64,000 bases of DNA from Patescibacteria group bacterium (GCA_049274945.1 JBASTP010000009.1:4441-68440); one strand, 5' to 3'; numbered from the stretch's first letter, positions 14,315 through 43,575 are shown. Program-made: numbers and translations. The notes: generated by a model not told the origin, from the letters alone.

Positions 14315-14321
14315 TGGCCGG

Positions 14322-14443: not shown

Positions 14444-14456
14444 CATTCGGTCGCTT

Positions 14457-14512: not shown

Positions 14513-14536
14513 CTCAATTAGGCCCGTTAGATTCTT

Positions 14537-14608: not shown

Positions 14609-14619
14609 CAATTCCTCTA

Positions 14620-26311: not shown

Positions 26312-26359
26312 CGTGCTAGTGTGCTATAGTAAACTCATACGCAAGGAAAAGGAAGGGGA

Positions 26360-29300: not shown

Positions 29301-31315
29301 CCGTCAACCGAGCCGATGGTTCAATCGCGCCTCAACTGACAAGCTGCCTCATGTCAATATCCTGTATTGCGAACGGGTCGTATCCTGCCGCCTCACTGCC
29401 TTTGAGTCAAACCTTCTACTCGCTGACGCCGCCGACGCTCGCACCACCCAATGACACGAGGTACTATCTCAGATCAGATATCAATCGCACCGGTTGCGTG
29501 GCCGGCGAGACCTGCCATTCGGCCTTTATCACACCGTGGTTGGATATCATAAACCAAAAACGGCGGCTGTTTGACCCACTGCCCGCAATACAAGATGGCA
29601 CGATCTATAACGGCCTTGGACCGGTTTTTCCGGCAATCAAGTTTTTGAACGCCGCGAGCGGTATCAACCTCTACCCTTATTTTTACGGACCAAGGGCCGC
29701 GTTCTTGCGGCAGGACTACTCGGTCGGCGAGTACGACCCGATTAGCTACCAGATGGTCAACCAGCAGGGCTCGCTGATTTCCCAAGGAACCCTGCCGCGG
29801 CTGTCGCTCACAAGCGGCATTACTCCTTCCACTCCCTATGGCCCATTGCTCAACCTAGCTCCGAGCGGCGGCACTCTGGATTTCAAGATTGACTTGTTTG
29901 GCTACCGGGTTCGCAACCAAGCGATGAAAGCCAAGTTTTCGGCCAAGTTCAACCTTGCCTCAACCGATTCGAACCCGCCGGCGATCAAACGGCTCTACTT
30001 TTTTACGGGCGGCAAGCGCAGCGAACTCTACGAACCGGGATTGAATAACCGTCTCGAATTCGAGCTCGATCCGATCGGCGGCTCGATCACCCAGGCCAAG
30101 GTCTCTTACGCCACCGACGGCGTGAGCTTTACGCCACTGCCGGTGCAAGGCAGCTTTGGCAGCTACGCGGTTGATCTGCCAAACCTTCCGGCTGCGACCA
30201 AGCTGAGCTTGCAGATAGAAGGATCGGATGCGGCTGCGAACAGCTTGAGTTACACCTTCGAGTTGCCGGCCAACCTCGACCAGATCAAGCCGACCACTCG
30301 ATTCAGCAACCTCTTAGCCAACGCTTACTTATCCAAGATCGCCAGCATTATTGCCTCGGCAAGCGACGATCGCGGCATCGCCAAAGTTGAGCTCTACCGC
30401 TCGAGCGTGCTGATTGGTAGCAAGGCCGAGCCGCCCTTCGAGATTCCTTGGGACACTCGGGCGGTAACCGATGGCAGCTACACTTTGCAGCTCAAAGCGT
30501 ACGACGGCGCGGGCAACACTGCCACGGCCGACCTTGCTGTTACCGTTGACAACACCCCGCCGATCATCTACCAAATCAGCCAGCCGGGCGATACGTTAAC
30601 CAAGGGCGTGGCCGAGCTCGTTACCAGCTACTACGATCGGTTCGGGGTCACTAAGGTTGAGTATGACATTGACGGCGCCTACCACGGCCGAGCCACAGCC
30701 TTCCCCTGGATTGTCTATTGGGATACTCGCTCGCTTGCGAGCGGCTCGAGCCACTCGATTGTGTCTAAGGTCTACGACTATGCGGGCAATGTTTCGACCT
30801 CACCGGCTAAGCGAGTAACAGTGTATGATGCGCTACCGATCGTTTCGCCGCCGTCATCACCGGCCCCTGCTCCAGCTCCGCCGCCATCAGTCCCTTCGAG
30901 GAGTGCTCCGTCAGGAGAATCAAGACCGTCCCAACCATCGCCAAGCCAACCGGCGGCAGACGCACCAGCTCCGTCTCAACCCCAACAAGTTTCAGGCGGT
31001 CCGGCACCTGCTCCAGCACCGCCGCCAGCTCCGCCGCGTAAGCTCCGGCCGCTCAACAAAAAAGACCAGCGGCTTAAGTCCACGATCGAGCGTCAGCTCA
31101 AGAGCGCGGAAGGCCAAGTAAGCAAGTTCGAGGGACAACTTGGCGGTTTTCGCGCCAAGGAAGCCCAGCTTGCCGGCCAGCCGCAAACAGGCCGAGTCGC
31201 TCGTCAACTTCGTTCGGTGAGATCGAGTATCTCTCGGGCCGAACAAAGTTTAAACGCCGCCCGCGCCAAACGGTCTGAAGTCAGCTCTCGATTCGATAAG
31301 TTGATTTATTATTGA
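26360..31315 (+). CDS. Giant secreted subtilisin-like serine protease (peptidase S8) with long beta-rich extension, Pro-rich linker and C-terminal coiled-coil tail
   Basis: Catalytic triad blocks VAIIDTGVDYRH (Asp), DDHGHGTHVAATAAG (His), LSGTSMATPHVAGAAALARQ (Ser); N-terminal TM/signal; PPSSPAPAPAPPPSVPS...PAPAPAPPPAPP linker; 1651 aa. Confidence 0.85.
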   Translation: MLQHAWERLRMSGRVALRLALVGGSFLLFTTLLGITIPTNDARQLGKESAAEDAITRDLNELNGTQTLVEGQLVINKESAAPTSGQEIRKSITLSSGNTVDLKTNQDERFSIIEARPDITTFAAAGGGSSIVTSTPPEAIPEKIDPELVAEFEAGSKQEPVIIELNNIEPPESGDNSQEGKQKKEKLKQAEQKLGKTLGRSGDVKQELDLQIASAVAATVDKKGLAKLTADPSVKRIELDREVKAVLDTSLDEIKVKDVWPSFDRNNQTMTGVGKRVAIIDTGVDYRHGDLGGCLGANCKVIGGYDFVNNDADPLDDHGHGTHVAATAAGKGTLNGVAPDAKILAYKVLNQYGSGSWSNVIAAIGRATDPNNDGNTADHADVANMSLGGSGNPDDAISRAVDNSSAVGVVHAIAAGNSGSSPSTIGTPGTARSAITVAASCKAAQVGVYGYCATPIASFSSRGPLVWNGEDIQKPDLAAPGVYICAAYIAAGSCASGSYTRLSGTSMATPHVAGAAALARQAYPDYTPAQIKQLLKSTARSLGGSLTYNDQGAGLIDVKAAIPANTQLTASPLRWQAVSNPSVKLSTSEQTFSVTPTVPEISALAVTHTLSQPGITLAFDTTTLLVSGQGSATLKATVIVDNDLVKSGSYQANIVLAESGTTKGIIPIDITVKPTITFGSTAEINYTVDNPSLTTWTSPIKPLTITNLRADIALSVTASVVGFPGNVTLKSNPSPILVGAGAQASVDTWLEVANTGLANGTYRGSVKLESTSGSTMVPASFTKFYVLEIKDPTNSIVGGTLWIHDRQATQYSRSMTTNSTTLYLNAAGPYDIVAFYPQVYDTDGRHMYTVFKEGVGLAATGQASVAISRSDAKNEVKLVPTDSDGNRVAKLYDMSYGIVYLSRPSLTSYGSLAGSEFSPDVTKHYYSDVSTNYQVFHQFINPPYTPAAKVHLYYDGFKSLSGNQTTANAAADFKSLRHELSVNRADGSIAPQLTSCLMSISCIANGSYPAASLPLSQTFYSLTPPTLAPPNDTRYYLRSDINRTGCVAGETCHSAFITPWLDIINQKRRLFDPLPAIQDGTIYNGLGPVFPAIKFLNAASGINLYPYFYGPRAAFLRQDYSVGEYDPISYQMVNQQGSLISQGTLPRLSLTSGITPSTPYGPLLNLAPSGGTLDFKIDLFGYRVRNQAMKAKFSAKFNLASTDSNPPAIKRLYFFTGGKRSELYEPGLNNRLEFELDPIGGSITQAKVSYATDGVSFTPLPVQGSFGSYAVDLPNLPAATKLSLQIEGSDAAANSLSYTFELPANLDQIKPTTRFSNLLANAYLSKIASIIASASDDRGIAKVELYRSSVLIGSKAEPPFEIPWDTRAVTDGSYTLQLKAYDGAGNTATADLAVTVDNTPPIIYQISQPGDTLTKGVAELVTSYYDRFGVTKVEYDIDGAYHGRATAFPWIVYWDTRSLASGSSHSIVSKVYDYAGNVSTSPAKRVTVYDALPIVSPPSSPAPAPAPPPSVPSRSAPSGESRPSQPSPSQPAADAPAPSQPQQVSGGPAPAPAPPPAPPRKLRPLNKKDQRLKSTIERQLKSAEGQVSKFEGQLGGFRAKEAQLAGQPQTGRVARQLRSVRSSISRAEQSLNAARAKRSEVSSRFDKLIYY

Positions 31316-31376
31316 GCGTGACAAGCGAAGATTCTCCGTTTACAATTGACGAGTAACTTTTTTTTGGCAGTCCGAT

Positions 31377-33017
31377 ATGGATCAAGAATACAAATACGAC
31401 TATTTGATTTTAGGAACGGGCATGTCGGCGCTCACCGCCGGCGCGCTGCTGGCGAACGCCGGTTATAAAGTGTGCATGCTCGAAGCCCACGACATTCCCG
31501 GCGGTTACGCCCAATCGTTCAAATGGGGCGATTTTTACTTTTGCGGCCAGGTGCACTACATTTGGGGGTGCGGCCCGGGCGGCAAAATCAACACGTTTCT
31601 TAAAAAGCTCGGCCTGGAAAACGATATCACCTTTGAGCTCTACGACATCAATGGTTACGATCGGGTGGGTTTGCCGGATGGCAAGATTGTTTCCATCCCC
31701 AACGGTTTTGACGAACTGGCCGAAAATATTGAAAAAGCCTACCCCGGCCAAAAGGCCAACGTCCAAAAGTTTACCAAAACTTTGCTCGATATTCGCGCGG
31801 AACTGCGCCGGATTCCCGACCGTAAAATTGCCTGGTGGGAATATGTAACCAAAATCTGGGGGTTCCCCAATCTCATAAAATACCGCAACAGTACGCTCCA
31901 AGATATCTTTGACGAATGTAAGCTAAGTCCGGAGGCCCAGGCCGTCCTGGCAGGCAACGCCGGCGATTTTATGCTGCCTCCCAAAGAGCTTTCGATTTTT
32001 CCCTACGCGGCGCTGTTTTGCGGCTACAATGGCGGCGCCTACTACCCAACTAAACATTATAAATACATGATCGATCGGATCGCCCAATCGATCACCGGGC
32101 ACCGCGGCTGCCACATTTTCTACGAAACGCTCGTGACGAAAATCAATGTTGAGGGCGATCGGGTAACGAGCGTCGAAACGCAAGATGGCCGAACCTTTAC
32201 CGCGCGAACCATTATTTGCAACATCGATCCCAAAGCCGCCGCCAAGATGATTGGATATGATAAACTCCCAGCCCGTTACACGCGCAAACTCAACTATACC
32301 TACTCGGGTTCTTCACTTATGGTGTACCTTGCGCTCAAGGATATCGATCTCGTGAAATCCGGTTTGGGCCGGTGGAACTTGTGGCACCTTGGCCAGTGGG
32401 ATGTTAATAAAATCTGGGATGATCAGAAAAAGGGCGACTTTAGCCACCCGTGGTTTTTTATGTCAACACCTACCTTGCATTCCAAAGCCCCCGGCACCGC
32501 GCCTGCCGGACATGAGATTGTTGAGATTGCCACCTATACTGAGCACGTAGACTGGAAGGCGCTCCACGATCAAGATTACAAGGCCTACGAAGCCAAAAAA
32601 AATGCCTTGGTTGAAAAGCTCCTTGATATTATTGAAGCACGCTATATCCCTAATATCCGCAAACACATCGTGGTTAAGCTTCCCGGCAGTCCTACCTCCA
32701 ACGAAGAGTGGGCGTGGGCGCCCATGGGCAACGCCTATGGGCAAACCATGACGCCCAAAGAAATCGGCATCCGCCGTTTTCCCATGGATACGCCGTTTAC
32801 CAACTTCTACTTTTGCAATGCCACGGCCGGCTATGCCAGCATCTACGCCACGGTCGGTAATGGCATCAGCCTCTATGCCAAACTGACCGGCGATGATTTT
32901 TACCACCTCTCCGATGGTCCGACCGACGAGGAGTTTGCTGCTCAAGCACGAGCAATGAGTTCGGCGGCCCGTTTACCAGATCGCGCCGCTCCCTCGGTCC
33001 AAGGAGCGTTCAAGTAG
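31377..33017 (+). CDS. FAD-dependent oxidoreductase, phytoene-desaturase/amine-oxidase family (CrtI-like)
   Basis: YDYLILGTGMSALTAGALLANAGYKVCMLEAHDIPGGYA dinucleotide-binding N-terminus; 546 aa. Confidence 0.75.
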   Translation: MDQEYKYDYLILGTGMSALTAGALLANAGYKVCMLEAHDIPGGYAQSFKWGDFYFCGQVHYIWGCGPGGKINTFLKKLGLENDITFELYDINGYDRVGLPDGKIVSIPNGFDELAENIEKAYPGQKANVQKFTKTLLDIRAELRRIPDRKIAWWEYVTKIWGFPNLIKYRNSTLQDIFDECKLSPEAQAVLAGNAGDFMLPPKELSIFPYAALFCGYNGGAYYPTKHYKYMIDRIAQSITGHRGCHIFYETLVTKINVEGDRVTSVETQDGRTFTARTIICNIDPKAAAKMIGYDKLPARYTRKLNYTYSGSSLMVYLALKDIDLVKSGLGRWNLWHLGQWDVNKIWDDQKKGDFSHPWFFMSTPTLHSKAPGTAPAGHEIVEIATYTEHVDWKALHDQDYKAYEAKKNALVEKLLDIIEARYIPNIRKHIVVKLPGSPTSNEEWAWAPMGNAYGQTMTPKEIGIRRFPMDTPFTNFYFCNATAGYASIYATVGNGISLYAKLTGDDFYHLSDGPTDEEFAAQARAMSSAARLPDRAAPSVQGAFK

Positions 33018-34276
33018 TCCCCGGCGAAGTAGATCCCTCCCTCGCCTTGGTGGTGGCGGGTAAAATTACTGACCACGGAAACAGTGCCATGTTCGAATGT
33101 TGGCATAGCGGCCGGCCAGCGAACTAGATCGTGAAAGAAGACTTCTTTTGATCGCTCGCGAGCTTCCGGACAAACTGTGAATAACGCTCGTCGTACAATC
33201 CGATTAATCTCCTGATCACTTTTCTTAAGGAGTTGCTGGGCCGCTTCGTCGTGGAGATAAACATTAAGGAGAGTGTGATTGTCTCGCACTAACTCTTGGC
33301 CTTTTCGGCCCTCAAAAATACAGCAGCTGATGATTTGGTTTTCCACAAACGGGACATAGATGCACTGGGTGGTGTCGGAGAATAGATCGAGCGGGACGCG
33401 GTATGACAGCACAATGCTAGCGGCGTACTTACTTGCTTTAAGCATGGTTTTTTGGGCAGCGGTTGGGTTTGAGAGTAGTCTTAGCGCCGCCGGCGCCGGG
33501 CACGCCAACACCACCGCCGAAAAGTGCTCGTCTTTTCCATCTATTCGGATTCGACACTCGTTTTTGATTGAACTAACGCCCTCGATTTTAGCTCGATATC
33601 GGACGGTAAGTTTTCTGGCTAATGCTTTGGGAATCGCTGACATCCCGCCCCTCGGATGCCGGGCAGTGAAGTTGCCTTTTGTTTTCATCATGGTAAGCAT
33701 ACCAAAGACAACCGCGGTGCTCATCGCAGCGGACCGGTAGAAATGGAGGGCGGCGGTAAGGGGATCAATGAGATAATCAACCACCTCATCGCCCATCTCT
33801 CGCCGGAGGTAGCTGCCCGCCGGCTCAAAATCCAAGGTCGGCCGGATCGTTGAGAGATCAAAAAAATTGCCCGGGCCCGATCGAAATAGGCTTTTGAGCA
33901 GCCATTTCACAAGACGGAGCCGAGCAGGCAACGAAATAACATTCAGCCGAAAAACACCCAAGGGGCCGCGCGCGCCGTAGCGGTAGGTTTTGCCGCTACG
34001 GATTACCCGATGGCGGCTGCCCGATATCATCGGAGTTAATGCAACACCGAACTCCGCCGCATAGGATTTCAGCTGATGGTAATCCTCGCTCAAAAAGGTC
34101 GCCCCTGGATTGAACTGGAAGCCGTTTTTGAAGCGCGTTGCCATACGACCGCCAGGGACTCCGGTTTTTTCATAAACCACCACGGTAAAACCAGCATTTT
34201 TTAGCTCATAAGCCGCGGTAAGCCCGGCAATGCCTGCGCCAATTACCGCTACTCGAGTTTCCGCGTGTTGCTTCAT
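32942..34276 (-). CDS. FAD-dependent oxidoreductase, amine-oxidase/protoporphyrinogen-oxidase-like
   Basis: RVAVIGAGIAGLTAAYELKNAGFTVVVYEKTGVPGGRMAT; 3' end overlaps the preceding gene by ~75 nt. Confidence 0.75.
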   Translation of the reverse strand: MKQHAETRVAVIGAGIAGLTAAYELKNAGFTVVVYEKTGVPGGRMATRFKNGFQFNPGATFLSEDYHQLKSYAAEFGVALTPMISGSRHRVIRSGKTYRYGARGPLGVFRLNVISLPARLRLVKWLLKSLFRSGPGNFFDLSTIRPTLDFEPAGSYLRREMGDEVVDYLIDPLTAALHFYRSAAMSTAVVFGMLTMMKTKGNFTARHPRGGMSAIPKALARKLTVRYRAKIEGVSSIKNECRIRIDGKDEHFSAVVLACPAPAALRLLSNPTAAQKTMLKASKYAASIVLSYRVPLDLFSDTTQCIYVPFVENQIISCCIFEGRKGQELVRDNHTLLNVYLHDEAAQQLLKKSDQEINRIVRRALFTVCPEARERSKEVFFHDLVRWPAAMPTFEHGTVSVVSNFTRHHQGEGGIYFAGDYLNAPWTEGAARSGKRAAELIARA

Positions 34277-34317
34277 CTTTGCAGTGTACCGAAAAGTCCG
34301 TATACTTTACTAGACGT

Positions 34318-35259
34318 ATGACGATCTATGATCTACTCATTATTGGCGCCGGGCCAGCCGGCATCGAAGCCGCCCTCCAGGCCGCGGCGCGCGGTCTTAG
34401 CTATTTGCTAATCGATAAGTTCGACGCCGGCTCGCTGATTGAGCAGACCATGAATAACAAAAAGTTCTACCAGATTTATGGCCGAAACGTCGATCTTTTG
34501 AAAGGTACTCTTGCCTTTCCCGATCGTGCCAAAGGGTACGAGCTCGTTGCGCTCTGGAAGCAGCAAGTCGCGCCGCTCGCGTTCCACAAAAACGAGTCGC
34601 TCAAGACCATTACCCGTTCTGGCCAGGAACCATTTGTCGTTACTACCACCAAAGATCAGTATCAGGCCCGGTATGTGCTCCTTACGAGCGGCACGTTCGA
34701 ACATCACAAAACCCTCCAAGTGGATGGCGAGCACGGCAACCCAAAAGTCCACTACACCCTCGACTACTACCAGGACTACCGCGACCAGGCGGTGGTAGTG
34801 GTGGGCGGCGGCAACACGGCGCTCGAGACCGCGATTTATTTTGGCGATGCCAACAAGGTAACTTTGCTCGTTCGTCGGGACCGTTTTACCGAGAGCGCGA
34901 CCGAGGCAAACCAGATGGCGATCCGCGAGTTGGTACAAAAAGGTACGCTGCACGTGGTCTACCATGCCGCGGTTATGCAGATTACGCCCCAGGAGATAGC
35001 CGTCCAAACCGGCCAAGGCCCACTCACGCTACCGTACGATTTGCTTTTTGTTCATATTGGTTTTGAAAAGCCAACCGATTTTCTAGCAAGCCTTGGCCTG
35101 CAGGTGCGTAACGGCGAGCCGGTGTACAACGAAAAGTTTGAGTCTAACATCCCGGGCCTCTACATTGCCGGTGCGCTCACCGGCTCGGATTCAATCGTAG
35201 AATGCGCCAACCAAACCTACCAAGTCGTCCACCAGTTGCCTAATTCCCCTGGCATTTAG
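34318..35259 (+). CDS. Pyridine nucleotide-disulfide oxidoreductase (thioredoxin-reductase-like)
   Basis: YDLLIIGAGPAGIEAALQAA FAD site and VVVVGGGNTALETAIYF NAD(P) site; start placed at the ATG at 34318 (MTIYDLL). Confidence 0.75.
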   Translation: MTIYDLLIIGAGPAGIEAALQAAARGLSYLLIDKFDAGSLIEQTMNNKKFYQIYGRNVDLLKGTLAFPDRAKGYELVALWKQQVAPLAFHKNESLKTITRSGQEPFVVTTTKDQYQARYVLLTSGTFEHHKTLQVDGEHGNPKVHYTLDYYQDYRDQAVVVVGGGNTALETAIYFGDANKVTLLVRRDRFTESATEANQMAIRELVQKGTLHVVYHAAVMQITPQEIAVQTGQGPLTLPYDLLFVHIGFEKPTDFLASLGLQVRNGEPVYNEKFESNIPGLYIAGALTGSDSIVECANQTYQVVHQLPNSPGI

Positions 35260-35278
35260 CCTCACGATTGGGTATACT
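35250..35278 (+). promoter_or_regulatory. Conserved sigma70-like promoter of cassette copy 1 (TGGCAT-17-TATACT)
   Basis: Near-identical to the element at 37799..37827, including the shared GCATTTAGCCT core. Confidence 0.4.
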
Positions 35279-35321
35279 ATAGCTGCAACAAATCTGAAAA
35301 AAACGGAAAGTGAACTTCCTT

Positions 35322-35444
35322 ATGGAAATGGAAGAATGGGACTGGGAACACACTATTTTTGGGAGGATTCTCCTGCTCTTTGCGAGCATTATTGGGTTTA
35401 CCGCATGGGACATTTACTGGTCACTCTTCAGTGAGCGGCGGTGA
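35322..35444 (+). CDS. 40-aa hydrophobic micropeptide (cassette copy 1)
   Basis: MEMEEWDWEHTIFGRILLLFASIIGFTAWDIYWSLFSERR; paralog of peptide 37880..38005; stop overlaps the next start region. Confidence 0.45.
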   Translation: MEMEEWDWEHTIFGRILLLFASIIGFTAWDIYWSLFSERR

Positions 35445-35449
35445 ACTCC

Positions 35450-35776
35450 ATGATATCGATCATAACCAAGTATCGGCATAGGCGTCGAAGACAAGTCAGT
35501 GCGCAAATCAATTTTCCACCGGATCAATACCAAGGCCCCTGGATATGGAATAAGGTGGTTGGAGCATTTCTGGTTGCGGTTGCGGGGGCGCTTCTTTTCA
35601 ATTACTTTTTGCCATGGTCCATCATAACGTTTTTTTTGGAACCTCTCCGATATCCAATCGCATACGTAGCTCGCGTGTGCGATTTTTGTTATTTGCATTA
35701 TCAGCAGAGTAGTGTCAATATATATCTTGACCTTGCAGTTGGTCTCGCCCTTAAACAATTGACGGGAGATGATTAA
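35450..35776 (+). CDS. Small 2-3-TM membrane protein (cassette copy 1)
   Basis: QGPWIWNKVVGAFLVAVAGALLFNYFLPW parallels YGFWTWDRIFFGLLVASVGSLITLFFGPYW in 38015..38356. Confidence 0.5.
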   Translation: MISIITKYRHRRRRQVSAQINFPPDQYQGPWIWNKVVGAFLVAVAGALLFNYFLPWSIITFFLEPLRYPIAYVARVCDFCYLHYQQSSVNIYLDLAVGLALKQLTGDD

Positions 35777-36884
35777 TATGTTTTTGCCCGGTGAATCGCA
35801 ATTGCTCGACGTAATGACTCGTGTTGCCGCTCAGAAGGATCATGGGATTGGCCACGTCCTGCGCGTTGGCTGCTACGTTCGGCTGATTATGGAAAAGACA
35901 GGGGGCTTTACGCCGGAAGCTTGTGAGCGAGTAGAGATGATTGCCCGCATCCACGACATTGGCAACACCGTGATCCTCGATACGATCCTGGATAAACAAG
36001 ACCCTCTAATCGATTGGGAACGATTGGAAATTGCCCAACATTCGGTAGCCGGTTGTGAAATGTTAGGCAATGTTTTTCATGAATTTTTGCCAATGATCCG
36101 CCACCATCATGAAAATTGGGACGCGAGCGGTTATCCCGATCACCTGGCTGGCGAACGAATTCCGCCTATGGCCCGGATTCTGCGGATGGCTGACGCCTTT
36201 GACGCCATGACCAGTTGGCGGCCGTACCGCATAAATCCGATCAATGTTGATCAAGCTATCCAGCAATTAAGAACCAAAGCCGGAATCGAGTTTGACCCAA
36301 AGCTCGTGCCAGTATTTGCGGACCAGGTTGATAAAATCAGCGCCATCATCAAGTGGATAGGCAATAGTACGCCACTCCATCATGACAGTCGTCTGGCGAT
36401 TGACTTTAACGTTATTGCTGGAGGGGCGGCCCTTACTGACGCATGGCATAGTAAGAGCCATGCGTTCCTAAATTTTCCGGAGAATCCCGGCGTGGTTGAC
36501 TTGCTTCGGGAACTTTCCTGCCGCTACTTCCGGGGTTGGGTTTTTATCTGGCCAAACTCGTCGAGAGAATGGAATGATCACAAGCAAGACCAGTGGTTAC
36601 GCCACCACCATGTTTTCGATCGCGCCTGCATTGCAAATTGGTCACTGGACTATTATATGTGTAATGTTGTTACAGCGTGCCGAGATTCGGCAATCTCACA
36701 CTTCATCGGATATGATCCAGAAACCCTCAAAAAACTATTGGGAATAGTGCCGAACTTATACCTTTTCAGACGAGATTCACTTCGCATCCCTGTCGACTTA
36801 AGGATTAAGGTTGCTAACTCAACCCAGCAACTCACTAATTCGATCATCCAACCCTGGCCCATGGCAATTCCTCCAGAGGCGTAA
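35769..36884 (+). CDS. HD-GYP domain protein (c-di-GMP phosphodiesterase family) with uncharacterised ~170-aa C-terminal domain
   Basis: HDIGNTVI ... HHHENWDASGYPDHLAGERIPPMARILRMADAFDAMTSWRPYR is the HD-GYP signature. Confidence 0.8.
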   Translation: MINMFLPGESQLLDVMTRVAAQKDHGIGHVLRVGCYVRLIMEKTGGFTPEACERVEMIARIHDIGNTVILDTILDKQDPLIDWERLEIAQHSVAGCEMLGNVFHEFLPMIRHHHENWDASGYPDHLAGERIPPMARILRMADAFDAMTSWRPYRINPINVDQAIQQLRTKAGIEFDPKLVPVFADQVDKISAIIKWIGNSTPLHHDSRLAIDFNVIAGGAALTDAWHSKSHAFLNFPENPGVVDLLRELSCRYFRGWVFIWPNSSREWNDHKQDQWLRHHHVFDRACIANWSLDYYMCNVVTACRDSAISHFIGYDPETLKKLLGIVPNLYLFRRDSLRIPVDLRIKVANSTQQLTNSIIQPWPMAIPPEA

Positions 36885-36992
36885 CGCCACGACGCCCAAG
36901 CACCTTTACGGTGCTCTTTTTTGTCCTCTCAGGCGTACATAGAGGCGTACATACGATTTTTATCCCGCTCGTCGGGTAAGAAACCCCAAAGA

Positions 36993-37760
36993 CACTTCCG
37001 AAGTGGGAATAGGTTACACATTGGTACATTTTTGACAATTGTTGTATGTTAGACTTATGGCACGCCGAAAAGAAATACTCGCAACCGGAGAAATTTACCA
37101 TGTGTTCAATAGGTCGATAGACAATAAAACTATTTTCAACTCCTCAATAGAGTTAAACCGCTTTTTGAATTTAATAAGGTTCTATGGATGTCTCAGGCCA
37201 ATCCGATTCTCTAAATTAACCGTCCAGCAACGAGAACTAATGATCAAGAAAAACGGTGGCGAGCCAATTGTTGAAATCATCTGTTATTGCTTGATGCCTA
37301 ATCATTTTCACTTATTGCTTAAACAGCTAAATGAAGGAGGCATTACCTCTTTTTTACGAAAAATCAGTGATGGATACAGTCGTTACTTTAATCTCATTCA
37401 TCACCGTGCTGGACCATTATTTCAAAACAATTTTAAAGCAGTCAGAATAGCTACTAACGAACAATTGCTCCATGTTTCTCGATACATTCATCTTAACCCT
37501 CTCACTGCCTATTTAGTTAATAATCTTGACGACTATCGTTGGTCTTCTTACCACGAATATATTAGCAGTAGTGACCTGAGGAATAGTGATTTCACCTGCA
37601 ACAAGAAATTAATTCTGGATCAATTCAAAAAGAAGTCCGGTTATCGAGCATTTGTGTTAGACAATGCGAATTACCAGAAAAAGTTAAAGGAAATCCAATA
37701 TCTTCTTATCGAGAATCCGACATAATTACCGAAGTGACACCTGAAGACACTTCGGAAGTG
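36993..37760 (+). mobile_element. REP-associated tyrosine transposase (RAYT) unit: gene plus flanking CACTTC(C/G)GAAGTG palindromes
   Basis: Palindrome CACTTCCGAAGTG at 36993..37005; hairpin CCGAAGTG-acacctgaaga-CACTTCGG at 37729..37756 immediately after the stop; AT-rich gene. Confidence 0.55.
37039..37725 (+). CDS. IS200/IS605-like Y1 HUH transposase of the RAYT (TnpA-REP) type
   Basis: HUH motif CYCLMPNHFHLLLK and catalytic-Tyr motif SRYIHLNPLTAYLV (compare E. coli RAYT HMHCIW / YIYINPVKHGWV). Confidence 0.8.
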   Translation: MLYVRLMARRKEILATGEIYHVFNRSIDNKTIFNSSIELNRFLNLIRFYGCLRPIRFSKLTVQQRELMIKKNGGEPIVEIICYCLMPNHFHLLLKQLNEGGITSFLRKISDGYSRYFNLIHHRAGPLFQNNFKAVRIATNEQLLHVSRYIHLNPLTAYLVNNLDDYRWSSYHEYISSSDLRNSDFTCNKKLILDQFKKKSGYRAFVLDNANYQKKLKEIQYLLIENPT

Positions 37761-37798
37761 TCCGGAATCACCAGGATCAGCATTCGCGCTTCTGCGGC

Positions 37799-37827
37799 TT
37801 GCATTTAGCCTGGAAATTGGTTACAGT
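37799..37827 (+). promoter_or_regulatory. Conserved sigma70-like promoter of cassette copy 2 (TTGCAT-17-TACAGT)
   Basis: Shares the GCATTTAGCCT core and downstream CTGAAAAA / GAAAGTGA blocks with copy 1. Confidence 0.4.
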
Positions 37828-37879
37828 GTGTGGGCAATCAACCTGAAAAATAGAAAGTGAGGTATTCCTAGTGGGCGAG

Positions 37880-38005
37880 ATGCAATGGAACCGGGAACAC
37901 GGTGTCTTGGGGACGCTGCTCCTGGGCTTCTTGAGCCTTATTTGGTTTTCTGCGTACGAGATTTACTGCTATCTTGTACCGCGCGGTGGTAATAACCGGA
38001 GGTGA
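37880..38005 (+). CDS. 41-aa hydrophobic micropeptide (cassette copy 2)
   Basis: MQWNREHGVLGTLLLGFLSLIWFSAYEIYCYLVPRGGNNRR; paralog of 35322..35444. Confidence 0.45.
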   Translation: MQWNREHGVLGTLLLGFLSLIWFSAYEIYCYLVPRGGNNRR

Positions 38006-38014
38006 CTGAATGCA

Positions 38015-38356
38015 ATGAAACCTTGGTATAAATCCCCACATACCATACGCCTTCCCGACACCTTCCCGGAGGGGGAAGAGTATTATGGATTCTGGACCTG
38101 GGACAGGATTTTTTTCGGCCTCCTGGTCGCCTCGGTTGGGTCGCTGATTACCCTGTTTTTCGGCCCGTACTGGTTTGAGCATCTCTGGCATACCGGTTCA
38201 ATCGTCTGCGGTTTTGCCTGGAGTTTTCTGCTGATGTGCAAAAGCAAGGTTCCTTGGCAGGAACGATTTGGGATGTGGCTTTTCGGAGCGGCGTTGATTG
38301 GCGCCATAATATATCTCGCCCTCATTATTTACGGCATTCAGGCCGCAAGCGCATAG
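38015..38356 (+). CDS. Small 3-TM membrane protein (cassette copy 2)
   Basis: 113 aa; paralog of 35450..35776; chosen over the overlapping minus-strand ORFs. Confidence 0.5.
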   Translation: MKPWYKSPHTIRLPDTFPEGEEYYGFWTWDRIFFGLLVASVGSLITLFFGPYWFEHLWHTGSIVCGFAWSFLLMCKSKVPWQERFGMWLFGAALIGAIIYLALIIYGIQAASA

Positions 38357-38371
38357 CGCTGTGCGGTTTTT

Positions 38372-39658
38372 TTGTTGCCTGAACTGGCATATAATGATGG
38401 AAGGATGGGACTGCTGAATATCTTTTCGGGTAAAGGCCTGGCCAATTGGGCGATCTCGCTTGACATCGGCACCGAGTTTATTAAGAGTATGATTTTTGAG
38501 GTCAAGGACGGCAAAGCGCACATTAAGGGCGTGGGCCGGAGCCGCCAAAAACTTTCGGACATGCAGGGCGGGGTGGTCACCGATATCGCCGGGGTAATTG
38601 GGAGCTGCGAAAAATCGCTCGAGTTGGCAGTTGAACAGGCTAAGGTGCTCCCCAAGCAAGTGATCATTGGGATTGCCGGGGAGCTCGTGAAAGGCACCAC
38701 CACTGCGGTTCACTACGAACGGGCTAAACCGAAAAGCCAGATTGACTTACCCGAACTCAAAGAGATTATCACCAAAATCCAGCGGCAGGCGTTCGACAAG
38801 GCGCGGCGCACCCTGGCCTGGGAAACCGGCCATGCCGAGATCGACGTGCGCCTGGTGAATGCGGCAATCGTGGATGTAAAAATCGACGGCTATAAAGTAA
38901 CCAATCCCTTGGGATTCCAGGGTAAGGATGTGGAGGTGGGGGTATTCAACGCCTTCGCGCCGATTGTCCACCTGGGCGCACTCCAGACGATCGCCGAAGA
39001 GCTCCAGCTCGATTTGCTCTCCGTCGCCCCGGAGCCGTACGCCGTGGCCCGAGCGGTGTCGGAGGACGAGTCCGTTGAGTTCTCGGCAATTTTTGTGGAC
39101 ATTGGCGGCGGCACCACCGACGTGGCACTGGTGCGCGCCGGCGGAATCGAGGGTACCAAGATGTTTGCCATGGGCGGCCGCACCTTCACGAAGCGGATTG
39201 CGGAGGAGCTGGGCGTGCCGTTCCAAAAAGCCGAGGAGCTCAAACTGGAATATTCAGATAAAAGTTTGCCGAGCGTAAAAACCAAGCAGATTGCCGAGTT
39301 TCTCGAACTCGATTGCGATGTGTGGGTTGAGGGGCTCAGAATCGTGCTCGAGGAGTTTGGCGCAACCGACCTGCTGCCCTCCCGAATATTGCTGTGCGGC
39401 GGCTCCTCCCAGCTGCCCGATATCTACCAGAGACTCTCTGCCAAAGAGTGGGTGAAGGATTTGCCCTTTGCCCGCAAGCCGGTGGTGCAGTTTATCAAAG
39501 CGGCAGAAGTATCACGCGTGGTAGACGACACCGGGTCGGAGCGGGACGCCGCCGACATCACGCCTATGGCGCTCGCAAACCTGGCGACCGATCTGGTTGG
39601 CCACCCGGCACCGGTTGAGGGTGTATTATCAAAAGTAGTGGAAACGCTGAGAAGCTGA
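38372..39658 (+). CDS. ftsA: Cell division protein FtsA (actin-like ATPase)
   Basis: ISLDIGTEFIKSMIFE (phosphate 1), VDIGGGTTDVALVRAG (phosphate 2), LLCGGSSQLP (adenosine motif). Confidence 0.85.
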   Translation: MLPELAYNDGRMGLLNIFSGKGLANWAISLDIGTEFIKSMIFEVKDGKAHIKGVGRSRQKLSDMQGGVVTDIAGVIGSCEKSLELAVEQAKVLPKQVIIGIAGELVKGTTTAVHYERAKPKSQIDLPELKEIITKIQRQAFDKARRTLAWETGHAEIDVRLVNAAIVDVKIDGYKVTNPLGFQGKDVEVGVFNAFAPIVHLGALQTIAEELQLDLLSVAPEPYAVARAVSEDESVEFSAIFVDIGGGTTDVALVRAGGIEGTKMFAMGGRTFTKRIAEELGVPFQKAEELKLEYSDKSLPSVKTKQIAEFLELDCDVWVEGLRIVLEEFGATDLLPSRILLCGGSSQLPDIYQRLSAKEWVKDLPFARKPVVQFIKAAEVSRVVDDTGSERDAADITPMALANLATDLVGHPAPVEGVLSKVVETLRS

Positions 39659-39696: not shown

Positions 39697-41271
39697 ATGG
39701 ACGATTTTATTTACCTAGAACCAGACGAAGAGATCCCGACCATCCTCAAGAAGCTCAAAAAGAGCGCCAGCGAGTCGGTGGGATTGGTGGTGCCGCGCGG
39801 CTCGATCACCCTGCAGTCGGCGATCAATTTAAAGCTCCTCAAGCAAGAAGCGGTGAAGCTCGGCAAGGACATTGCGATTGTTACGGCAGATTCAATCGGC
39901 CAGCACCTGGCGGCGCAAGCCGGGCTCACGGTGTTTGAGTCGGTTAAAAGCAACCAGCCGATTGCGATGCGCAAGCGCGCGAGTGAGGATGAGCCAAAAT
40001 TGGGCGAGCCGGCCGAGCAAAAGCAAAATGGCCCGGCTGGCGTAAACGTCCGCCACTTCCAGACGGAAACCATTGAGCCTGAAAAACAGTATGTTGAGCC
40101 CGAGCGCACCCACGCACCGCTACCGGCCCGCCGGCGGGTAAAGGGAGCCGTGGTGGTGGCCATCGCCCTGGTTGTTCTCCTTCTTTATACCTTTATTGTG
40201 CCGCGCGTCACGATTACCGTGGAGGTGCTCGGCGAGCCGCTCGAGCGGGAGCTCACCTTGAGCGCGGCAACGGTTTCAGGCGCCGGCGAACAGGTGGTTC
40301 CGGCGACGCTCGAGGAGGCCACCAAGGAGCGAACCCAGACGTTCAAAACCACCGGCCAAAAGAACGTGGGCGAAAAGACCAAGGGCACGATCACCTTAAA
40401 TAACGCGTGGTCTTCCGATAATGTGTCGCTTGCCGCTGGCACTAAGCTCACGAGCAATGGGATAGCGTTTCGGCTCACCCAGGCGGTAATAATCCCGGGG
40501 GCATCGGTGAGTTTGGTGGCCGGCCAGGCCCAAACCAACCCGGGCAAAATCGACGGCGCGATCGAGGCCGAGGGATCGGGCGAAGCCGGCAACGTTGCGC
40601 CGGGCAAGTTCACCATTACCTCAATTGAAGCGATTAAACAAAGCAAGATCTACGGCGAGTCAACCACCAAACTCACCGGCGGCTCATCGCGGTTCATTGG
40701 CGTGGTGTCCGAGGAAGATCTGAAAACCGCCCGCACCACCCTCGAAGGCGAACTCAAAAACGAGCTCAAGGAAAGTATTGTCAGTAAAGCCGCCGGCCGC
40801 ATTGCGCTCGATCAAGCGGTCAAGCTCGAACAAATTGACGAGAAATCAAGTAAGCAAGTGGATGAGGAAGCGGGAGAGTTCGAACTCAAGCTCAAGGGTA
40901 ACCTCAAGGCGATTGTTTTTACCGAAGAAGATTTCCGCAAAGCATTCTTAAACGATCTAGCGCAGGAGATAGGCGAGGACCACGAGGTGGTGTTTGGGCC
41001 GTCAGACGAAATCACCACCACGGTAGAGGAAGCTGATTTTGAGAATGGCCGGCTCCAGTTGCGGGGGTTACTGAAAAGTCAGATCGCGCCCAAAATTGAC
41101 CAAGCGCAGTTAAAACAGACGATTCGTTTTAAGTCGTTCCCGGGCACCGAAAAAATCATCCGCGATTTGCCGCAAGTCAGCAATGTCGAAATCAGCATCT
41201 CACCGCGCGCTTCCCTTAAGCGGATTCCGCTTTTGCCCACCAACGTGAAGTTCGATATCAAGCATAAATAA
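39697..41271 (+). CDS. Bitopic membrane protein of unknown function (cytoplasmic N-domain, one TM, large extracytoplasmic domain) in the division/wall cluster
   Basis: TM VVVAIALVVLLLYTFIV around residue 150; no tubulin GGGTGTG motif, so not FtsZ. Confidence 0.55.
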   Translation: MDDFIYLEPDEEIPTILKKLKKSASESVGLVVPRGSITLQSAINLKLLKQEAVKLGKDIAIVTADSIGQHLAAQAGLTVFESVKSNQPIAMRKRASEDEPKLGEPAEQKQNGPAGVNVRHFQTETIEPEKQYVEPERTHAPLPARRRVKGAVVVAIALVVLLLYTFIVPRVTITVEVLGEPLERELTLSAATVSGAGEQVVPATLEEATKERTQTFKTTGQKNVGEKTKGTITLNNAWSSDNVSLAAGTKLTSNGIAFRLTQAVIIPGASVSLVAGQAQTNPGKIDGAIEAEGSGEAGNVAPGKFTITSIEAIKQSKIYGESTTKLTGGSSRFIGVVSEEDLKTARTTLEGELKNELKESIVSKAAGRIALDQAVKLEQIDEKSSKQVDEEAGEFELKLKGNLKAIVFTEEDFRKAFLNDLAQEIGEDHEVVFGPSDEITTTVEEADFENGRLQLRGLLKSQIAPKIDQAQLKQTIRFKSFPGTEKIIRDLPQVSNVEISISPRASLKRIPLLPTNVKFDIKHK

Positions 41272-42686: not shown

Positions 42687-42962
42687 ATGAAAACCGCCAA
42701 GTTGCCCTCGTTTTTCCAATCAATTTTTTGGGACACCCGGCTTGCAAATATTGACTACAAAAAACATTCCCGCTATGTGATCGAGCGTGTGCTCCAGTGG
42801 GGCAGGCCCCAGCACGTACGCTGGCTACTCGGCCACTATTCGAAACGCATGATTTTGCATGTGGCAAAAACCGGGCGGGAAGTCCGCCCAGAGCGCAAAT
42901 ATTTCTGGAAGTTCTATTTAACTCACCAACGAAAAAAACGAACAAAATTATATGCACACTGA
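42687..42962 (+). CDS. Small basic hypothetical protein, candidate partner (antitoxin/regulator) of the AbiEii-like gene
   Basis: 91-aa ORF directly upstream of, and overlapping by 11 nt, the AbiEii-like gene; no family recognised; AT-rich. Confidence 0.4.
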   Translation: MKTAKLPSFFQSIFWDTRLANIDYKKHSRYVIERVLQWGRPQHVRWLLGHYSKRMILHVAKTGREVRPERKYFWKFYLTHQRKKRTKLYAH

Positions 42963-43575
42963 AGCGCTTGCTCCAAAAACAAAAAAAGCTTTCGAGCTAC
43001 TTGGAACCGTGGAGATGATCCAACAATTTTATTTGGCAGGTGGTACTGCGGCCGCATTATATCTTGGCCATCGGTCCTCCCACGATCTTGATTTTTTTTC
43101 AACTCAAAGATTTGATTCGGAATTACTAAGACTTGAACTCGAAAAGGTAGGGAATCTTGCAATCGAATTCAAAAAAAAAGATACCTTGCTAGGAAAGTTT
43201 AACGGGGTAAAAATTAGTTTTTTTTATTACCCGTACCCCTTGATTCAACCGTTGGCTTACTTTGACTCAGTTGCTATCACCAATCAAAAAGATATTGCAG
43301 CAATGAAAATTAATGCGATTGCTGGTCGCGGGATTAAACGAGATTTCATTGATCTCTACTCACTCATGGAAGCCAATCATTGGCGATTGATTGAAGTAAT
43401 AGCGTGGTTCATGAAAAAATACAAAAAATCAAATTACAACATGGTGCACGTTCTCAATGCGTTAATTTATTTTGAGGATGCTGACAAAACCCCGATTCCA
43501 AAAATGATCACACCGATTGATTGGGGAAAGATTAAAGAATATTTCCGCGATGCGGTCAAAGAAATTGAACTGTAA
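42952..43575 (+). CDS. AbiEii/AbiGii-family nucleotidyltransferase (type IV toxin-antitoxin toxin-like; DUF1814)
   Basis: FYLAGGTAAALYLGHRSSHDLDFFS matches the family hallmark (GGTAL...R.SxDLDF); strongly AT-rich versus flanks. Confidence 0.7.
   Translation: MHTEALAPKTKKAFELLGTVEMIQQFYLAGGTAAALYLGHRSSHDLDFFSTQRFDSELLRLELEKVGNLAIEFKKKDTLLGKFNGVKISFFYYPYPLIQPLAYFDSVAITNQKDIAAMKINAIAGRGIKRDFIDLYSLMEANHWRLIEVIAWFMKKYKKSNYNMVHVLNALIYFEDADKTPIPKMITPIDWGKIKEYFRDAVKEIEL

What the first reader, a model, noticed from the sequence alone, without database searches (positions are those of the whole stretch)
35250..38356. Duplicated promoter + micropeptide + small TM-protein cassette bracketing an HD-GYP gene and a RAYT transposase
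Two paralogous cassettes sit 2.5 kb apart. Each comprises a sigma70-like promoter with a shared GCATTTAGCCT core and conserved CTGAAAAA / GAAAGTGA leader blocks, a 40-41-aa hydrophobic peptide (W-x-x-EH...LL.F.S.I.F.A...IY), and an overlapping ~110-aa three-TM protein with a conserved (Y/Q)G(P/F)W(I/T)W motif. The non-coding leaders are conserved at least as well as the coding parts, which suggests a regulatory RNA element or attenuator. The cassettes bracket an HD-GYP gene with an unknown C-terminal domain and a RAYT-type HUH transposase. I cannot assign either cassette protein to any family. The arrangement looks like a membrane-embedded two-component module (peptide + partner), possibly coupled to c-di-GMP turnover, carried on or duplicated around a mobile element.
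Basis: seen in the sequence. Interest (0 to 1): 0.8.

Follow-up and report, generated by a model that had tools for sequence, protein, structure and literature searches.

The report
Duplicated orphan membrane-protein operon beside ftsA
The two look-alike cassettes are real copies of a small two-gene membrane-protein operon of unknown function, found only in a narrow Patescibacteria lineage next to the cell-division gene ftsA; one copy is half-decayed, and the HD-GYP and transposase genes between them are unrelated insertions.

Summary
Cassette 1 (35249-35776) and cassette 2 (37799-38373) are homologous from the -35 box to the first helix of the larger protein: leader 68%, peptide gene 64%, flanks random.

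The interpretation needs revising.
1. The conserved "leader blocks" are a sigma-70-type promoter, an A-rich tract and a Shine-Dalgarno site. There is no conserved RNA fold and no Rfam match.
2. The upstream "three-TM protein" is a pseudogene. It has a +1 frameshift in a T8 run and a 135-nt deletion, and reads out of frame through its old stop codon and terminator.
3. Only eight related loci turned up in billions of proteins and metagenome contigs. In every one where the downstream flank is held, the membrane-protein gene lies directly upstream of ftsA. None carries an HD-GYP gene.
4. The REP-flanked RAYT unit (36989-37762, 36-39% GC) sits at a different site in a relative.

The peptide and the intact membrane protein are under purifying selection (dN/dS 0.2-0.3). 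They match no Pfam, NCBIfam, PHROGs, PADLOC or PDB family.

Verdict: a lineage-restricted, dispensable orphan operon, duplicated with one copy decaying, at a gene-gain hotspot between alaS and ftsA. Function unknown. Modest interest.

The parts
35249..35321 (+). Cassette 1 promoter and leader: -35 CTGGCA (35249-35254, overlapping the TAG stop of the upstream Pyr_redox gene at 35257-35259), -10 TATACT (35273-35278), an A-rich tract, and a degenerate Shine-Dalgarno GGAAAGTGA.
   Evidence: Promoter scan; five-way leader alignment; 68% identity to the cassette-2 leader with 0/500 shuffles reaching the score.
35322..35444 (+). Peptide gene 1 (40 aa, MEMEEWDWEHTIFGRILLLFASIIGFTAWDIYWSLFSERR): single-pass hydrophobic peptide. 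Annotated in the NCBI MAG as WAP74_03595.
   Evidence: ORF list. 63-65% identical to the peptides of L004 and L001 with dN/dS 0.23-0.28. Exact match P0008.
35441..35776 (+). Decayed type-B membrane-protein gene ('TM1' ORF). Homologous to the family only over ~35441-35629. It has a +1 frameshift in the T8 run 35630-35637 and a 135-nt net deletion at ~35645/35647. The ancestral stop TAG at 35667-35669 is now out of frame.
   Evidence: blastn: L004 4211-4259 matches window 35647-35693 at 92%, E 1e-12. Frame +1 reads ...FFWNLSDIQSHT*, against L004 ...WNLGS[45 codons]ADIQSHT*.
35656..35693 (+). Retained intrinsic terminator of cassette 1 (12-pair hairpin plus T-run), now lying inside the TM1 ORF and upstream of the HD-GYP gene.
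   Evidence: Terminator scan. Same hairpin as L004's terminator.
35769..36884 (+). HD-GYP-type phosphodiesterase gene. The start is more likely the ATG at 35778, downstream of GGGAG. HD_5 domain at aa 18-179; the C-terminal ~190 aa are unassigned. An inserted gene, not part of the cassette. Terminator at 36899-36915.
   Evidence: Pfam HD_5 E 2e-24 and HD E 1e-16. Absent from all related loci. Terminator.
36989..37762 (+). RAYT/IS200-like mobile unit: left palindrome GACACTTCCGAAGTG (36991-37007), Y1 transposase gene (ATG 37057 to 37725; HUH = HFHLL, YIHLNP), right palindrome (37746-37762). GC is 36-39% against ~52% in the flanks.
   Evidence: Pfam Y1_Tnp 29.2 bits, NCBIfam REP_Tyr_transpos 57.4 bits. 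Palindromes. Unit boundaries from homology with L001 2037-2801, which lies at a different site. GC profile.
37799..37870 (+). Cassette 2 promoter and leader: -35 TTGCAT (37799-37804), 17-nt spacer, -10 TACAGT (37822-37827), an A-rich tract, and Shine-Dalgarno GTGAGG (37857-37862).
   Evidence: Read from the sequence; leader alignment; identity test.
37871..38005 (+). Peptide gene 2 (44 aa from GTG, MGEMQWNREHGVLGTLLLGFLSLIWFSAYEIYCYLVPRGGNNRR).
   Evidence: ORF list. Start codon aligned with the ATG of L018. 41-43% identical to peptide 1.
38015..38356 (+). Intact type-A membrane-protein gene (113 aa; YYGFWTWDRI motif, then three helices at 29-49, 52-76 and 80-112). NCBI WAP74_03610.
   Evidence: 77% identical to P0002/L001, dN/dS 0.33. 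Family of 7 in 1.84 billion representatives. AlphaFold2 model pLDDT 75.
38349..38373 (+). Intrinsic terminator of cassette 2: hairpin over the stop codon plus a T-run.
   Evidence: Terminator scan. The hairpin is kept with different stem sequences in 7 loci.
38390..39658 (+). Conserved TATAAT box (38390-38395) and the ftsA-like gene (probable ATG at 38405). This is the constant downstream neighbour of the membrane-protein gene.
   Evidence: TIGR01174 ftsA E 2e-29. Junction alignment of 7 loci. Synteny.

Best explanation
SHOWN. The cassette is a self-contained bicistronic operon. It comprises a sigma-70-type promoter, a ~35-45-nt leader holding only an A-rich tract and a Shine-Dalgarno site, a 40-51-aa single-pass peptide gene, a translationally coupled ~107-117-aa three-helix membrane-protein gene, and an intrinsic terminator overlapping the stop codon.

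SHOWN. The membrane-protein family is restricted to a narrow Patescibacteria lineage. There it sits immediately upstream of ftsA wherever the downstream flank is held, in a region between alaS and ftsA that has gained genes stepwise. More distant relatives have alaS next to ftsA with no such gene.

SHOWN. This genome holds two diverged copies:
- The downstream copy (type A, next to ftsA) is intact.
- The upstream copy (type B) keeps its promoter, peptide gene and terminator, but its membrane-protein gene is dead (frameshift plus a 45-codon deletion).
- The HD-GYP gene and the REP-flanked RAYT unit between the copies are later, unrelated insertions.

INFERRED.
- The two types are old paralogs from a tandem duplication, differentially lost or decayed in relatives. 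L001 keeps a cassette-1-like 5' part joined to a cassette-2-like 3' part. L004 and L018 keep type B only.
- The peptide probably arose as a partial duplicate of the W-x-W-D/E motif plus helix 1 of the membrane protein.
- The two products probably assemble into a small helical membrane hetero-oligomer with a non-essential accessory role.
- The link to ftsA is mainly positional, because a terminator and a separate -10 box lie between the two genes.
For: Homology extent and significance.

Family size and context:
- Only P0002-P0007 in 1.84 billion representatives.
- Only two near-identical hits per query in 5.8 billion proteins.
- Contexts: L001, L003-L006 and L018.
- The membrane-protein gene is directly upstream of ftsA in the window, L003, L004, L005, L006 and L018.
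- FtsA loci at 56-62% identity have alaS then ftsA and no family member.

Pseudogene:
- blastn of the L004 gene end plus terminator against window 35647-35693: 92%, E 1e-12.
- The frame +1 translation restores WNL..DIQSHT*.
- A 12-pair terminator hairpin lies inside the ORF.
- An independently broken type-B gene occurs in L018.

Real genes: dN/dS is 0.22-0.33 for the peptides and 0.33 for TM2 against L001. Pyr_redox is 0.11-0.16 at comparable dS.

Leader is promoter plus RBS:
-. L001 has a canonical AAGGAG where the window has GAAAGTGA(GG).
- No consensus structure in the transcribed part. No Rfam match.

Terminator and separate ftsA signal: the hairpin is kept through compensatory stem changes, and TATAA is invariant in 7 loci.

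RAYT as a separate mobile unit.

Mosaic relation of L001 to the two window copies.

Peptide against helix 1: BLASTP E 5e-4, hhalign E 0.006, and the same register in about 30 of 35 pairs.
Against: - No experiment or homology says what the proteins do. The hetero-oligomer idea is inference from co-encoding only.
- The peptide-helix 1 homology is weak: hhalign probability 6%, and many pairwise shuffle p-values exceed 0.05.
- The order of events cannot be resolved with short contigs. An old duplication with differential loss and the capture of a second allele by recombination remain equally open.
- The frameshift lies in a homopolymer and could be an assembly error. L002, which is 100% identical, may derive from the same sample. 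The 135-nt deletion would still remove helices 2-3.
- In L018 the peptide ORF is intact although its partner gene is broken. That does not fit an obligate two-component complex.
- Constant adjacency to ftsA could still reflect a functional link.
Confidence: 0.62

Rival explanations
1. Divisome accessory. The three-helix protein, with its peptide, is a lineage-specific membrane partner or regulator of FtsA, comparable in role to small division proteins such as CrgA or ZipA-like anchors. That would explain why it always sits directly upstream of ftsA.
For: Immediate, co-directional adjacency to ftsA in the window, L003, L004, L005, L006 and L018, despite a variable upstream neighbour (alaS, S8 protease or Pyr_redox). 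One member gives a sub-threshold CrgA hit, E 0.37.
Against: - A conserved intrinsic terminator and a separate TATAAT box lie between the gene and ftsA.
- Relatives with 56-62% identical FtsA lack the gene.
- The gene is broken in L018 with nothing else upstream of ftsA.
- It evolves fast: 37-46% identity between loci whose FtsA is 77-95% identical.
- The CrgA hit is not significant.
Confidence: 0.2
2. Conflict module. The small hydrophobic peptide and its membrane partner act as a toxin/immunity, holin/antiholin-like or phage-exclusion pair. That would explain the fast divergence, the two very different types at one locus, the repeated decay and the nearby mobile DNA.
For: - Types A and B share only ~37-42% identity at a locus whose flanking genes are 85-95% identical.
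- Decay in two lineages.
- RAYT next to the cassette in two genomes.
- An AbiEii toxin gene lies 4.6 kb downstream.
Against: - No match in PHROGs or PADLOC, and no holin or toxin Pfam family.
- No phage genes nearby.
- L018 keeps the peptide while the partner is broken, which would be lethal for a toxin/immunity pair.
- dN/dS is below 1.
- No antisense-RNA signal was examined or found.
Confidence: 0.12
3. One reading: a membrane sensor/partner module functionally coupled to the HD-GYP c-di-GMP phosphodiesterase, with a regulatory RNA leader, moved or duplicated by the RAYT element.
For: Physical bracketing of the HD-GYP and RAYT genes in this genome. The TM1 ORF overlaps the HD-GYP start.
Against: - HD-GYP is absent from all six independent related loci.
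- The overlap arises from out-of-frame read-through of a dead gene across a retained terminator.
- The leader has no conserved fold and no Rfam match.
- The homology between the copies stops at the -35 box and does not reach the RAYT palindromes.
- The RAYT unit lies elsewhere in L001.
Confidence: 0.03
4. Spurious ORFs: the similarity is only a duplicated non-coding promoter region, and the small ORFs are not genes.
For: Very narrow distribution. The leader is the best-conserved segment. TM1 is indeed not a functional gene.
Against: - Intact peptide ORFs in five cassettes and intact membrane-protein ORFs in six loci. pN is well below pS.
- Conserved motif and helix pattern.
- Shine-Dalgarno sites at the right distance.
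- The terminator is placed exactly at the stop codon.
Confidence: 0.03

Closest known systems
Small single-pass peptides co-encoded with a membrane partner (for example KdpF with KdpABC, CydX with CydAB, AcrZ with AcrB); comparison from general knowledge
   Same: A ~40-aa hydrophobic one-helix peptide is encoded in the same operon as, and translationally coupled to, a polytopic membrane protein.
   Different: The partner here is only a 3-helix, ~110-aa protein with no recognisable transporter or enzyme domain. There is no sequence or fold match to any of these. The peptide appears to be a paralog of the partner's own first helix.
CrgA (PF06781), a small membrane cell-division protein of Actinobacteria
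   Same: A small helical membrane protein encoded near cell-division genes and non-essential (general knowledge).
   Different: Only one of six members gives E 0.37, far below threshold. It has three helices rather than two, occurs in a different phylum, and is separated from ftsA by a terminator.
RAYT / IS200-IS605 Y1 (HUH) transposases with flanking REP palindromes (PMC3116915, PMC5581495)
   Same: The gene at 37057-37725 has the Y1_Tnp domain, an HUH motif (HFHLL) and the catalytic-Tyr region (YIHLNP). It is flanked on both sides by the same palindrome.
   Different: It scores below NCBIfam's REP_Tyr_transpos cut-off (57 against 80 bits). Only two palindrome copies occur in 64 kb. The whole unit lies at different sites in two related genomes, so it behaves like a mobile IS200-like unit rather than a fixed, domesticated RAYT.
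HD-GYP c-di-GMP phosphodiesterases (PF13487 HD_5; RpfG-type)
   Same: The gene at 35778-36884 has the HD_5 domain above threshold, the HD motif (HDIGN) and HHENWDASGYP.
   Different: It has no receiver or other N-terminal sensor domain, and a ~190-aa C-terminal region with no family. It is not linked to the cassette in any other genome.
Type I toxins and holins (small hydrophobic membrane peptides)
   Same: Size, a single hydrophobic helix and a basic C-terminal tail.
   Different: No PHROGs, PADLOC or Pfam match and no phage context. The peptide is retained where its partner is broken.

Membership tests
HD-GYP phosphodiesterase (PF13487 HD_5) | HD_5 / HD profile match above Pfam's gathering score | tested here: met
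   HD_5 86.7 bits (cut-off 27.2) and HD 61.6 bits (cut-off 22).
HD-GYP phosphodiesterase (PF13487 HD_5) | HD dyad and HHExxDGxGYP signature | tested here: met
   The translation shows ARIHDIGN and HHENWDASGYP, with one G-to-A deviation.
HD-GYP phosphodiesterase (PF13487 HD_5) | c-di-GMP hydrolysis activity | not testable with these tools
   Needs an enzyme assay.
RAYT (REP-associated tyrosine transposase) | Y1_Tnp (IS200-like) domain with the HUH motif and catalytic Tyr | tested here: met
   PF01797 29.2 bits (cut-off 23). HFHLL and YIHLNP are visible.
RAYT (REP-associated tyrosine transposase) | NCBIfam REP_Tyr_transpos equivalog score | tested here: not met
   57.4 bits against a cut-off of 80.
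RAYT (REP-associated tyrosine transposase) | Flanked by REP palindromes that are also dispersed in the genome | tested here: inconclusive
   The palindrome GACACTTCCGAAGTG lies on both flanks (36991-37007, 37746-37762). No further copies occur in the 64-kb window. The rest of the genome was not available.
Holin / antiholin or other phage small membrane proteins | Profile match to a phage protein family, and phage gene context | tested here: not met
   No PHROGs match at E<=0.01 for any window cassette protein. The only hits are two chance-level matches to unknown-function families in relatives: 0.018 for P0006 and 0.092 for the L018 peptide. The neighbours are housekeeping genes.
Known anti-phage defence systems (PADLOC) | Profile match to a defence-system component | tested here: not met
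   No hits for cassette proteins, HD-GYP or RAYT.
Riboswitch / attenuator leader RNA | Conserved secondary structure with covariation, or an Rfam match, in the transcribed leader | tested here: not met
   RNAalifold gives -2.7 kcal/mol, and the pairs lie upstream of the -10 box. Rfam gathering and E<=1 scans find nothing relevant. Only five sequences, so power is low.
CrgA-type small division protein (PF06781) | Profile match above Pfam's gathering score | tested here: not met
   One of six members at E 0.37; none significant.
The new family itself (three-helix protein upstream of ftsA) | Y-x-G-F-W-T-W-D/E-R-I motif, three helices, position directly upstream of ftsA | tested here: met
   TM2 meets all three. 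TM1 keeps only a degenerate motif and helix 1.

The most novel reading that the evidence does not exclude
The peptide and the three-helix protein form a previously undescribed, rapidly diversifying membrane module specific to one Patescibacteria clade. It would either tune FtsA-dependent division or mediate a conflict or host-interaction function. Its peptide would have been born by partial duplication of the partner's first helix. By the positive-inside rule (my reading of the sequences, not a tool result) the peptide would insert in the opposite orientation to that helix, giving an antiparallel pair of homologous helices.
Probability: 0.15. Interest if true: 0.5.

Novelty: new member of a known kind. 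Interest (0 to 1): 0.27.

Why it matters
As it stands, this is a clean small case of how reduced Patescibacteria genomes gain, duplicate and lose lineage-specific small membrane-protein genes at one hotspot, the alaS-ftsA junction. It includes a pseudogene that automated ORF calling reports as a 111-aa protein. It also shows a plausible route by which a micro-peptide gene arises from a fragment of its neighbour.

It would matter more if the family proved to act on FtsA. Cell division in these episymbiotic bacteria is poorly understood, and they lack many canonical divisome parts. The present evidence does not establish that link. The proposed connection to c-di-GMP signalling, which gave the finding its high first-stage score, is not supported.

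Tried and rejected
- Genome-contig scans with the Pyr_redox protein and with a Pyr_redox alignment found no relatives.
- A metagenome scan with the membrane-protein alignment found nothing. The second scan, with an FtsA alignment, gave 22 loci.
- Pfam, NCBIfam, PHROGs and PADLOC scans of all cassette proteins and family members gave nothing significant.
- A PDB profile search gave only E 4.8.
- Global MAFFT alignment of L004 against cassette 1 hid the internal deletion. Local blastn was needed.
- I considered that the shared GCATTTAGCCT core marks a remnant of the Pyr_redox 3' end carried along by the duplication. The 40 nt upstream of it are at random identity, and in L018 the same block lies after the stop codon. 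The evidence is therefore insufficient, and it is simply the -35 region.
- I considered co-transcription of the cassette with ftsA. This is rejected as the main mode because of the conserved terminator and the invariant TATAA box, although read-through is not excluded.
- Literature searches found nothing on this family or on HD-GYP function in Patescibacteria.

Full report

Yes. The ORFs and motifs are at the stated coordinates.

- Cassette 1 has a promoter-like site with -35 CTGGCA at 35249-35254 and -10 TATACT at 35273-35278. It has a peptide ORF at 35322-35444 and a larger ORF at 35441-35776.
- Cassette 2 has -35 TTGCAT at 37799-37804, a 17-nt spacer and -10 TACAGT at 37822-37827. It has a peptide ORF at 37871-38005 and a larger ORF at 38015-38356.
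- The peptides are 41% identical (E 5e-9). The larger proteins are 36% identical over the N-terminal 36 residues only (E 7e-6).
- I cut the DNA alignment into segments and shuffled each. The leader is 68% identical and the peptide gene 64% (0/500 shuffles reach either score). The first 62 codons of the larger gene are 51% identical (2/500).
- The rest of that gene, the 40 nt upstream and the 60 nt downstream are at random level.
- The homologous block therefore runs from the -35 box to the first helix of the larger protein, and the leader is indeed the best-conserved part.
- The genes in between are an HD_5/HD-domain protein carrying HDIGN and HHENWDASGYP, and a Y1_Tnp / REP_Tyr_transpos protein.

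**2. What the conserved leader is**

Three further cassettes from related genomes were found (L001, L004, L018; see section 3). A five-way alignment shows where the conserved columns fall:

- the -35 hexamer;
- the -10 hexamer (TAyAsT);
- an A-rich tract (CTGAAAAA / CTTAAAAA);
- a purine block 6-9 nt before the start codon. This block is a canonical AAGGAG in L001, and GAAAGTGAGG in cassette 2 and L018.

The "GAAAGTGA" block is therefore the Shine-Dalgarno site. RNAalifold gives only -2.7 kcal/mol, and its few pairs lie upstream of the -10 box, so they are not transcribed. Rfam finds nothing at gathering thresholds or at E<=1. With a start ~7 nt after the -10 box, the leader is only ~35-45 nt long. 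A regulatory RNA or attenuator is not supported. Promoter and RBS constraint explain the pattern.

**3. Distribution and context**

The family is extremely narrow.

- Word-indexed searches of 5.8 billion proteins returned only the window's own proteins and one relative each. These were P0002 (77% to TM2, locus L001) and P0003 (identical to TM1, locus L002, which is 100% identical to the window).
- A profile HMMER search of 1.84 billion cluster representatives found six proteins in total.
- A peptide profile found only peptide 1 and the L001 peptide.
- An FtsA-seeded metagenome scan added one more cassette, in L018.

The contexts are as follows:

| Locus | Gene order |
|---|---|
| L003 | alaS, membrane-protein gene, ftsA |
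| L006 | alaS, membrane-protein gene, ftsA, 528-aa gene, ruvX, yceG ... mreB |
| L005 | S8-protease homolog, membrane-protein gene, ftsA |
| L004 | two amine-oxidase genes, Pyr_redox, peptide, membrane-protein gene, terminator, ftsA |
| L018 | amine oxidase, Pyr_redox, peptide, broken membrane-protein gene, terminator, ftsA |
| L001 | Pyr_redox, peptide, membrane-protein gene, terminator, RAYT (contig ends) |

Twenty further FtsA loci at 56-63% identity contain no family member. About a dozen of them have alaS lying directly upstream of ftsA.

The window shows the fullest version. Its order is alaS (24683), a 1651-aa S8 subtilase, two amine-oxidase-like genes, Pyr_redox, cassette 1, HD-GYP, RAYT, cassette 2, ftsA, a 524-aa gene, yceG, AbiEii, mreB, mreC and PBP2.

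- The constant feature is therefore membrane-protein gene then ftsA.
- The upstream side is a gene-gain hotspot.
- The peptide gene occurs only in the loci that also have Pyr_redox upstream.
- No related locus has an HD-GYP gene.

**4. The upstream copy is half dead**

L004 carries an intact protein of the same type as cassette 1 ("type B": ...WDRIVGAFLIAIAGALGFNWFL...).

- Local blastn shows that L004's last codons, stop codon and terminator (4211-4259) match window 35647-35693 at 92% (E 1e-12). That stretch lies inside the TM1 ORF.
- Translating cassette 1 in the +1 frame gives ...FFWNLSDIQSHT*. L004 reads ...WNLGS-[45 codons]-ADIQSHT*.
- Relative to L004, cassette 1 has one extra T in the T8 run 35630-35637 and a net 135-nt deletion at about 35645/35647. 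The deletion removes helices 2 and 3.
- The annotated 111-aa ORF is in the family frame only for ~62 codons. It then runs out of frame across the old stop (TAG 35667-35669) and across a 12-pair terminator hairpin (35656-35684 plus T-run), and ends overlapping the HD-GYP start.
- L018 shows an independent decay of a type-B gene. Helix 1 and helix 3 are deleted with a frame change, while its 51-aa peptide ORF is intact.

**5. Are the intact genes real?**

- Peptide pairs between genomes give dN/dS of 0.22-0.33.
- TM2 against L001 gives 0.33 (dN 0.18, dS 0.55).
- The neighbouring Pyr_redox gene gives 0.11-0.16.
- The membrane proteins share Y-x-G-F-W-T-W-D/E-R-I, a GP..FE..WH loop and a K/S..W/Q..FG loop.
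- AlphaFold2 on the six-sequence alignment gives three helices (29-49, 52-76, 80-112) at mean pLDDT 75.
- Gene pairs are translationally coupled, either by a 4-nt overlap or by gaps of 5-9 nt.
- The terminator hairpin sits over the stop codon in all seven loci, with different stem sequences but preserved pairing. It is followed 12-20 nt later by an invariant TATAA(T) box only 9-10 nt before the ftsA ATG.

The cassette is therefore its own transcription unit, and ftsA appears to have its own -10 element.

**6. History (inference)**

- L001's single cassette matches the window's cassette 1 from Pyr_redox through the 5' half of the peptide gene (81%). It then matches cassette 2 from codon ~23 of the membrane-protein gene through the terminator and the ftsA-proximal spacer (85%).
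- Accordingly, the L001 peptide is 65% identical to peptide 1 but 42% to peptide 2, while its membrane protein is 74-77% identical to TM2.
- L004 and L018 carry only type B.
- The simplest reading is an old tandem pair (type B upstream, type A downstream), later resolved differently in each lineage. L001 would have lost the stretch between the two peptide genes. L004 and L018 would have lost the downstream copy. The window kept both, with decay of the type-B gene.
- Capture of a second allele by recombination cannot be excluded with such short contigs.

The RAYT unit is delimited by homology with L001 as window 36989-37762 (palindrome, gene, palindrome). It has 36-39% GC against ~52% around it, and in L001 it lies downstream of the cassette terminator instead. 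It is an independent insertion. It is not the agent of the duplication, because the inter-copy homology stops 35 nt short of it.

**7. Origin of the peptide (weak inference)**

The peptide's W-D-W-E-H/D...F-G-R-I-L-L-L segment aligns with the membrane protein's W-T-W-D-R-I-F-F-G-L-L-V plus helix 1.

- BLASTP gives E 5e-4 for the L001 pair and 0.01 for a window pair.
- hhalign of the two family profiles gives E 0.006 in the same register.
- The best Smith-Waterman alignment lands there in about 30 of 35 peptide-protein pairs, with shuffle p-values from 0.0005 to 0.5.
- tblastn second-best hits fall there too.

A partial duplication of the 5' end of the membrane-protein gene is a reasonable origin. 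Cassette 1's truncated gene shows how such a fragment can arise.

**8. Function**

No profile library matches: Pfam, NCBIfam, PHROGs, PADLOC and PDB sequences. Fold searches return only generic helix bundles.

What can be said:

- It is a small, co-expressed, membrane-embedded pair.
- It is under purifying selection, yet fast-evolving and dispensable.
- It sits at a fixed position beside ftsA but is transcriptionally insulated from it.

My best estimate is a non-essential accessory membrane complex of peptide plus three-helix protein. A role at the divisome is the leading specific guess (about 0.2) and a conflict-type role comes next (about 0.12). Coupling to the HD-GYP enzyme is very unlikely.

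**9. Comparison with known systems, and novelty**

- The HD-GYP gene meets the family's sequence criteria.
- The transposase meets the Pfam criterion but not NCBIfam's RAYT cut-off. It behaves like a mobile IS200-like unit, whereas typical RAYTs are single-copy genes flanked by REPs (PMC5581495, PMC3116915).
- The cassette proteins belong to no described family.
- In kind, this is an uncharacterised lineage-specific small-membrane-protein operon that has undergone duplication and decay. Both phenomena are ordinary. The family is new, but nothing points to a new mechanism.

Interest is modest, at 0.27.

Noticed in passing
window 38390-38407; L003-L006, L018 equivalents: An invariant TATAA(T) box lies only 9-10 nt upstream of the ftsA ATG in all seven loci, just after the cassette terminator. 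This implies a very short or nearly leaderless ftsA mRNA, or a different role for the box.
   Followed up: partly
window 24683-35259: The alaS-ftsA junction is a stepwise gene-gain hotspot. Distant relatives have alaS directly before ftsA. This genome has a 1651-aa S8 subtilase with Big domains, two amine-oxidase-like flavoproteins and a YpdA-like Pyr_redox gene inserted there.
   Followed up: partly
window 42952-43575: An AbiEii-type nucleotidyltransferase toxin gene (type IV TA) sits between yceG and mreB. L006 has a different 265-aa gene at that position.
   Followed up: no
L018 2665-2953: In the closest relative (FtsA 95% identical) the 51-aa peptide ORF is intact although the adjacent membrane-protein gene is broken by two deletions. 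The peptide may function, or persist, without its partner.
   Followed up: partly
window 35251-35261 and 37801-37811: The 11-nt block GCATTTAGCCT is identical in the two copies within this genome. It differs at 2-4 positions in the orthologous leaders of L001, L004 and L018. Synonymous divergence between peptide 1 and peptide 2 (pS 0.37) is also lower than to orthologs (0.60-0.66). Local gene conversion between the two copies is possible.
   Followed up: no
window 36320-36884: The C-terminal ~190 aa of the HD-GYP protein match no Pfam or NCBIfam family. The protein also lacks any N-terminal receiver or sensor domain.
   Followed up: no
window 39697-41271: A 524-aa protein with one predicted membrane helix follows ftsA here, and a 528-aa one follows it in L006. 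It has no significant family match, only weak SepX/GlpR and GlxA-barrel hits. It may be a lineage-specific division protein.
   Followed up: no
window 13915-14609: A cluster of three tRNA genes (Leu-GAG, Phe-GAA, Val-TAC), plus Leu-CAG at 2681 and Leu-TAA at 23391 on the minus strand.
   Followed up: no
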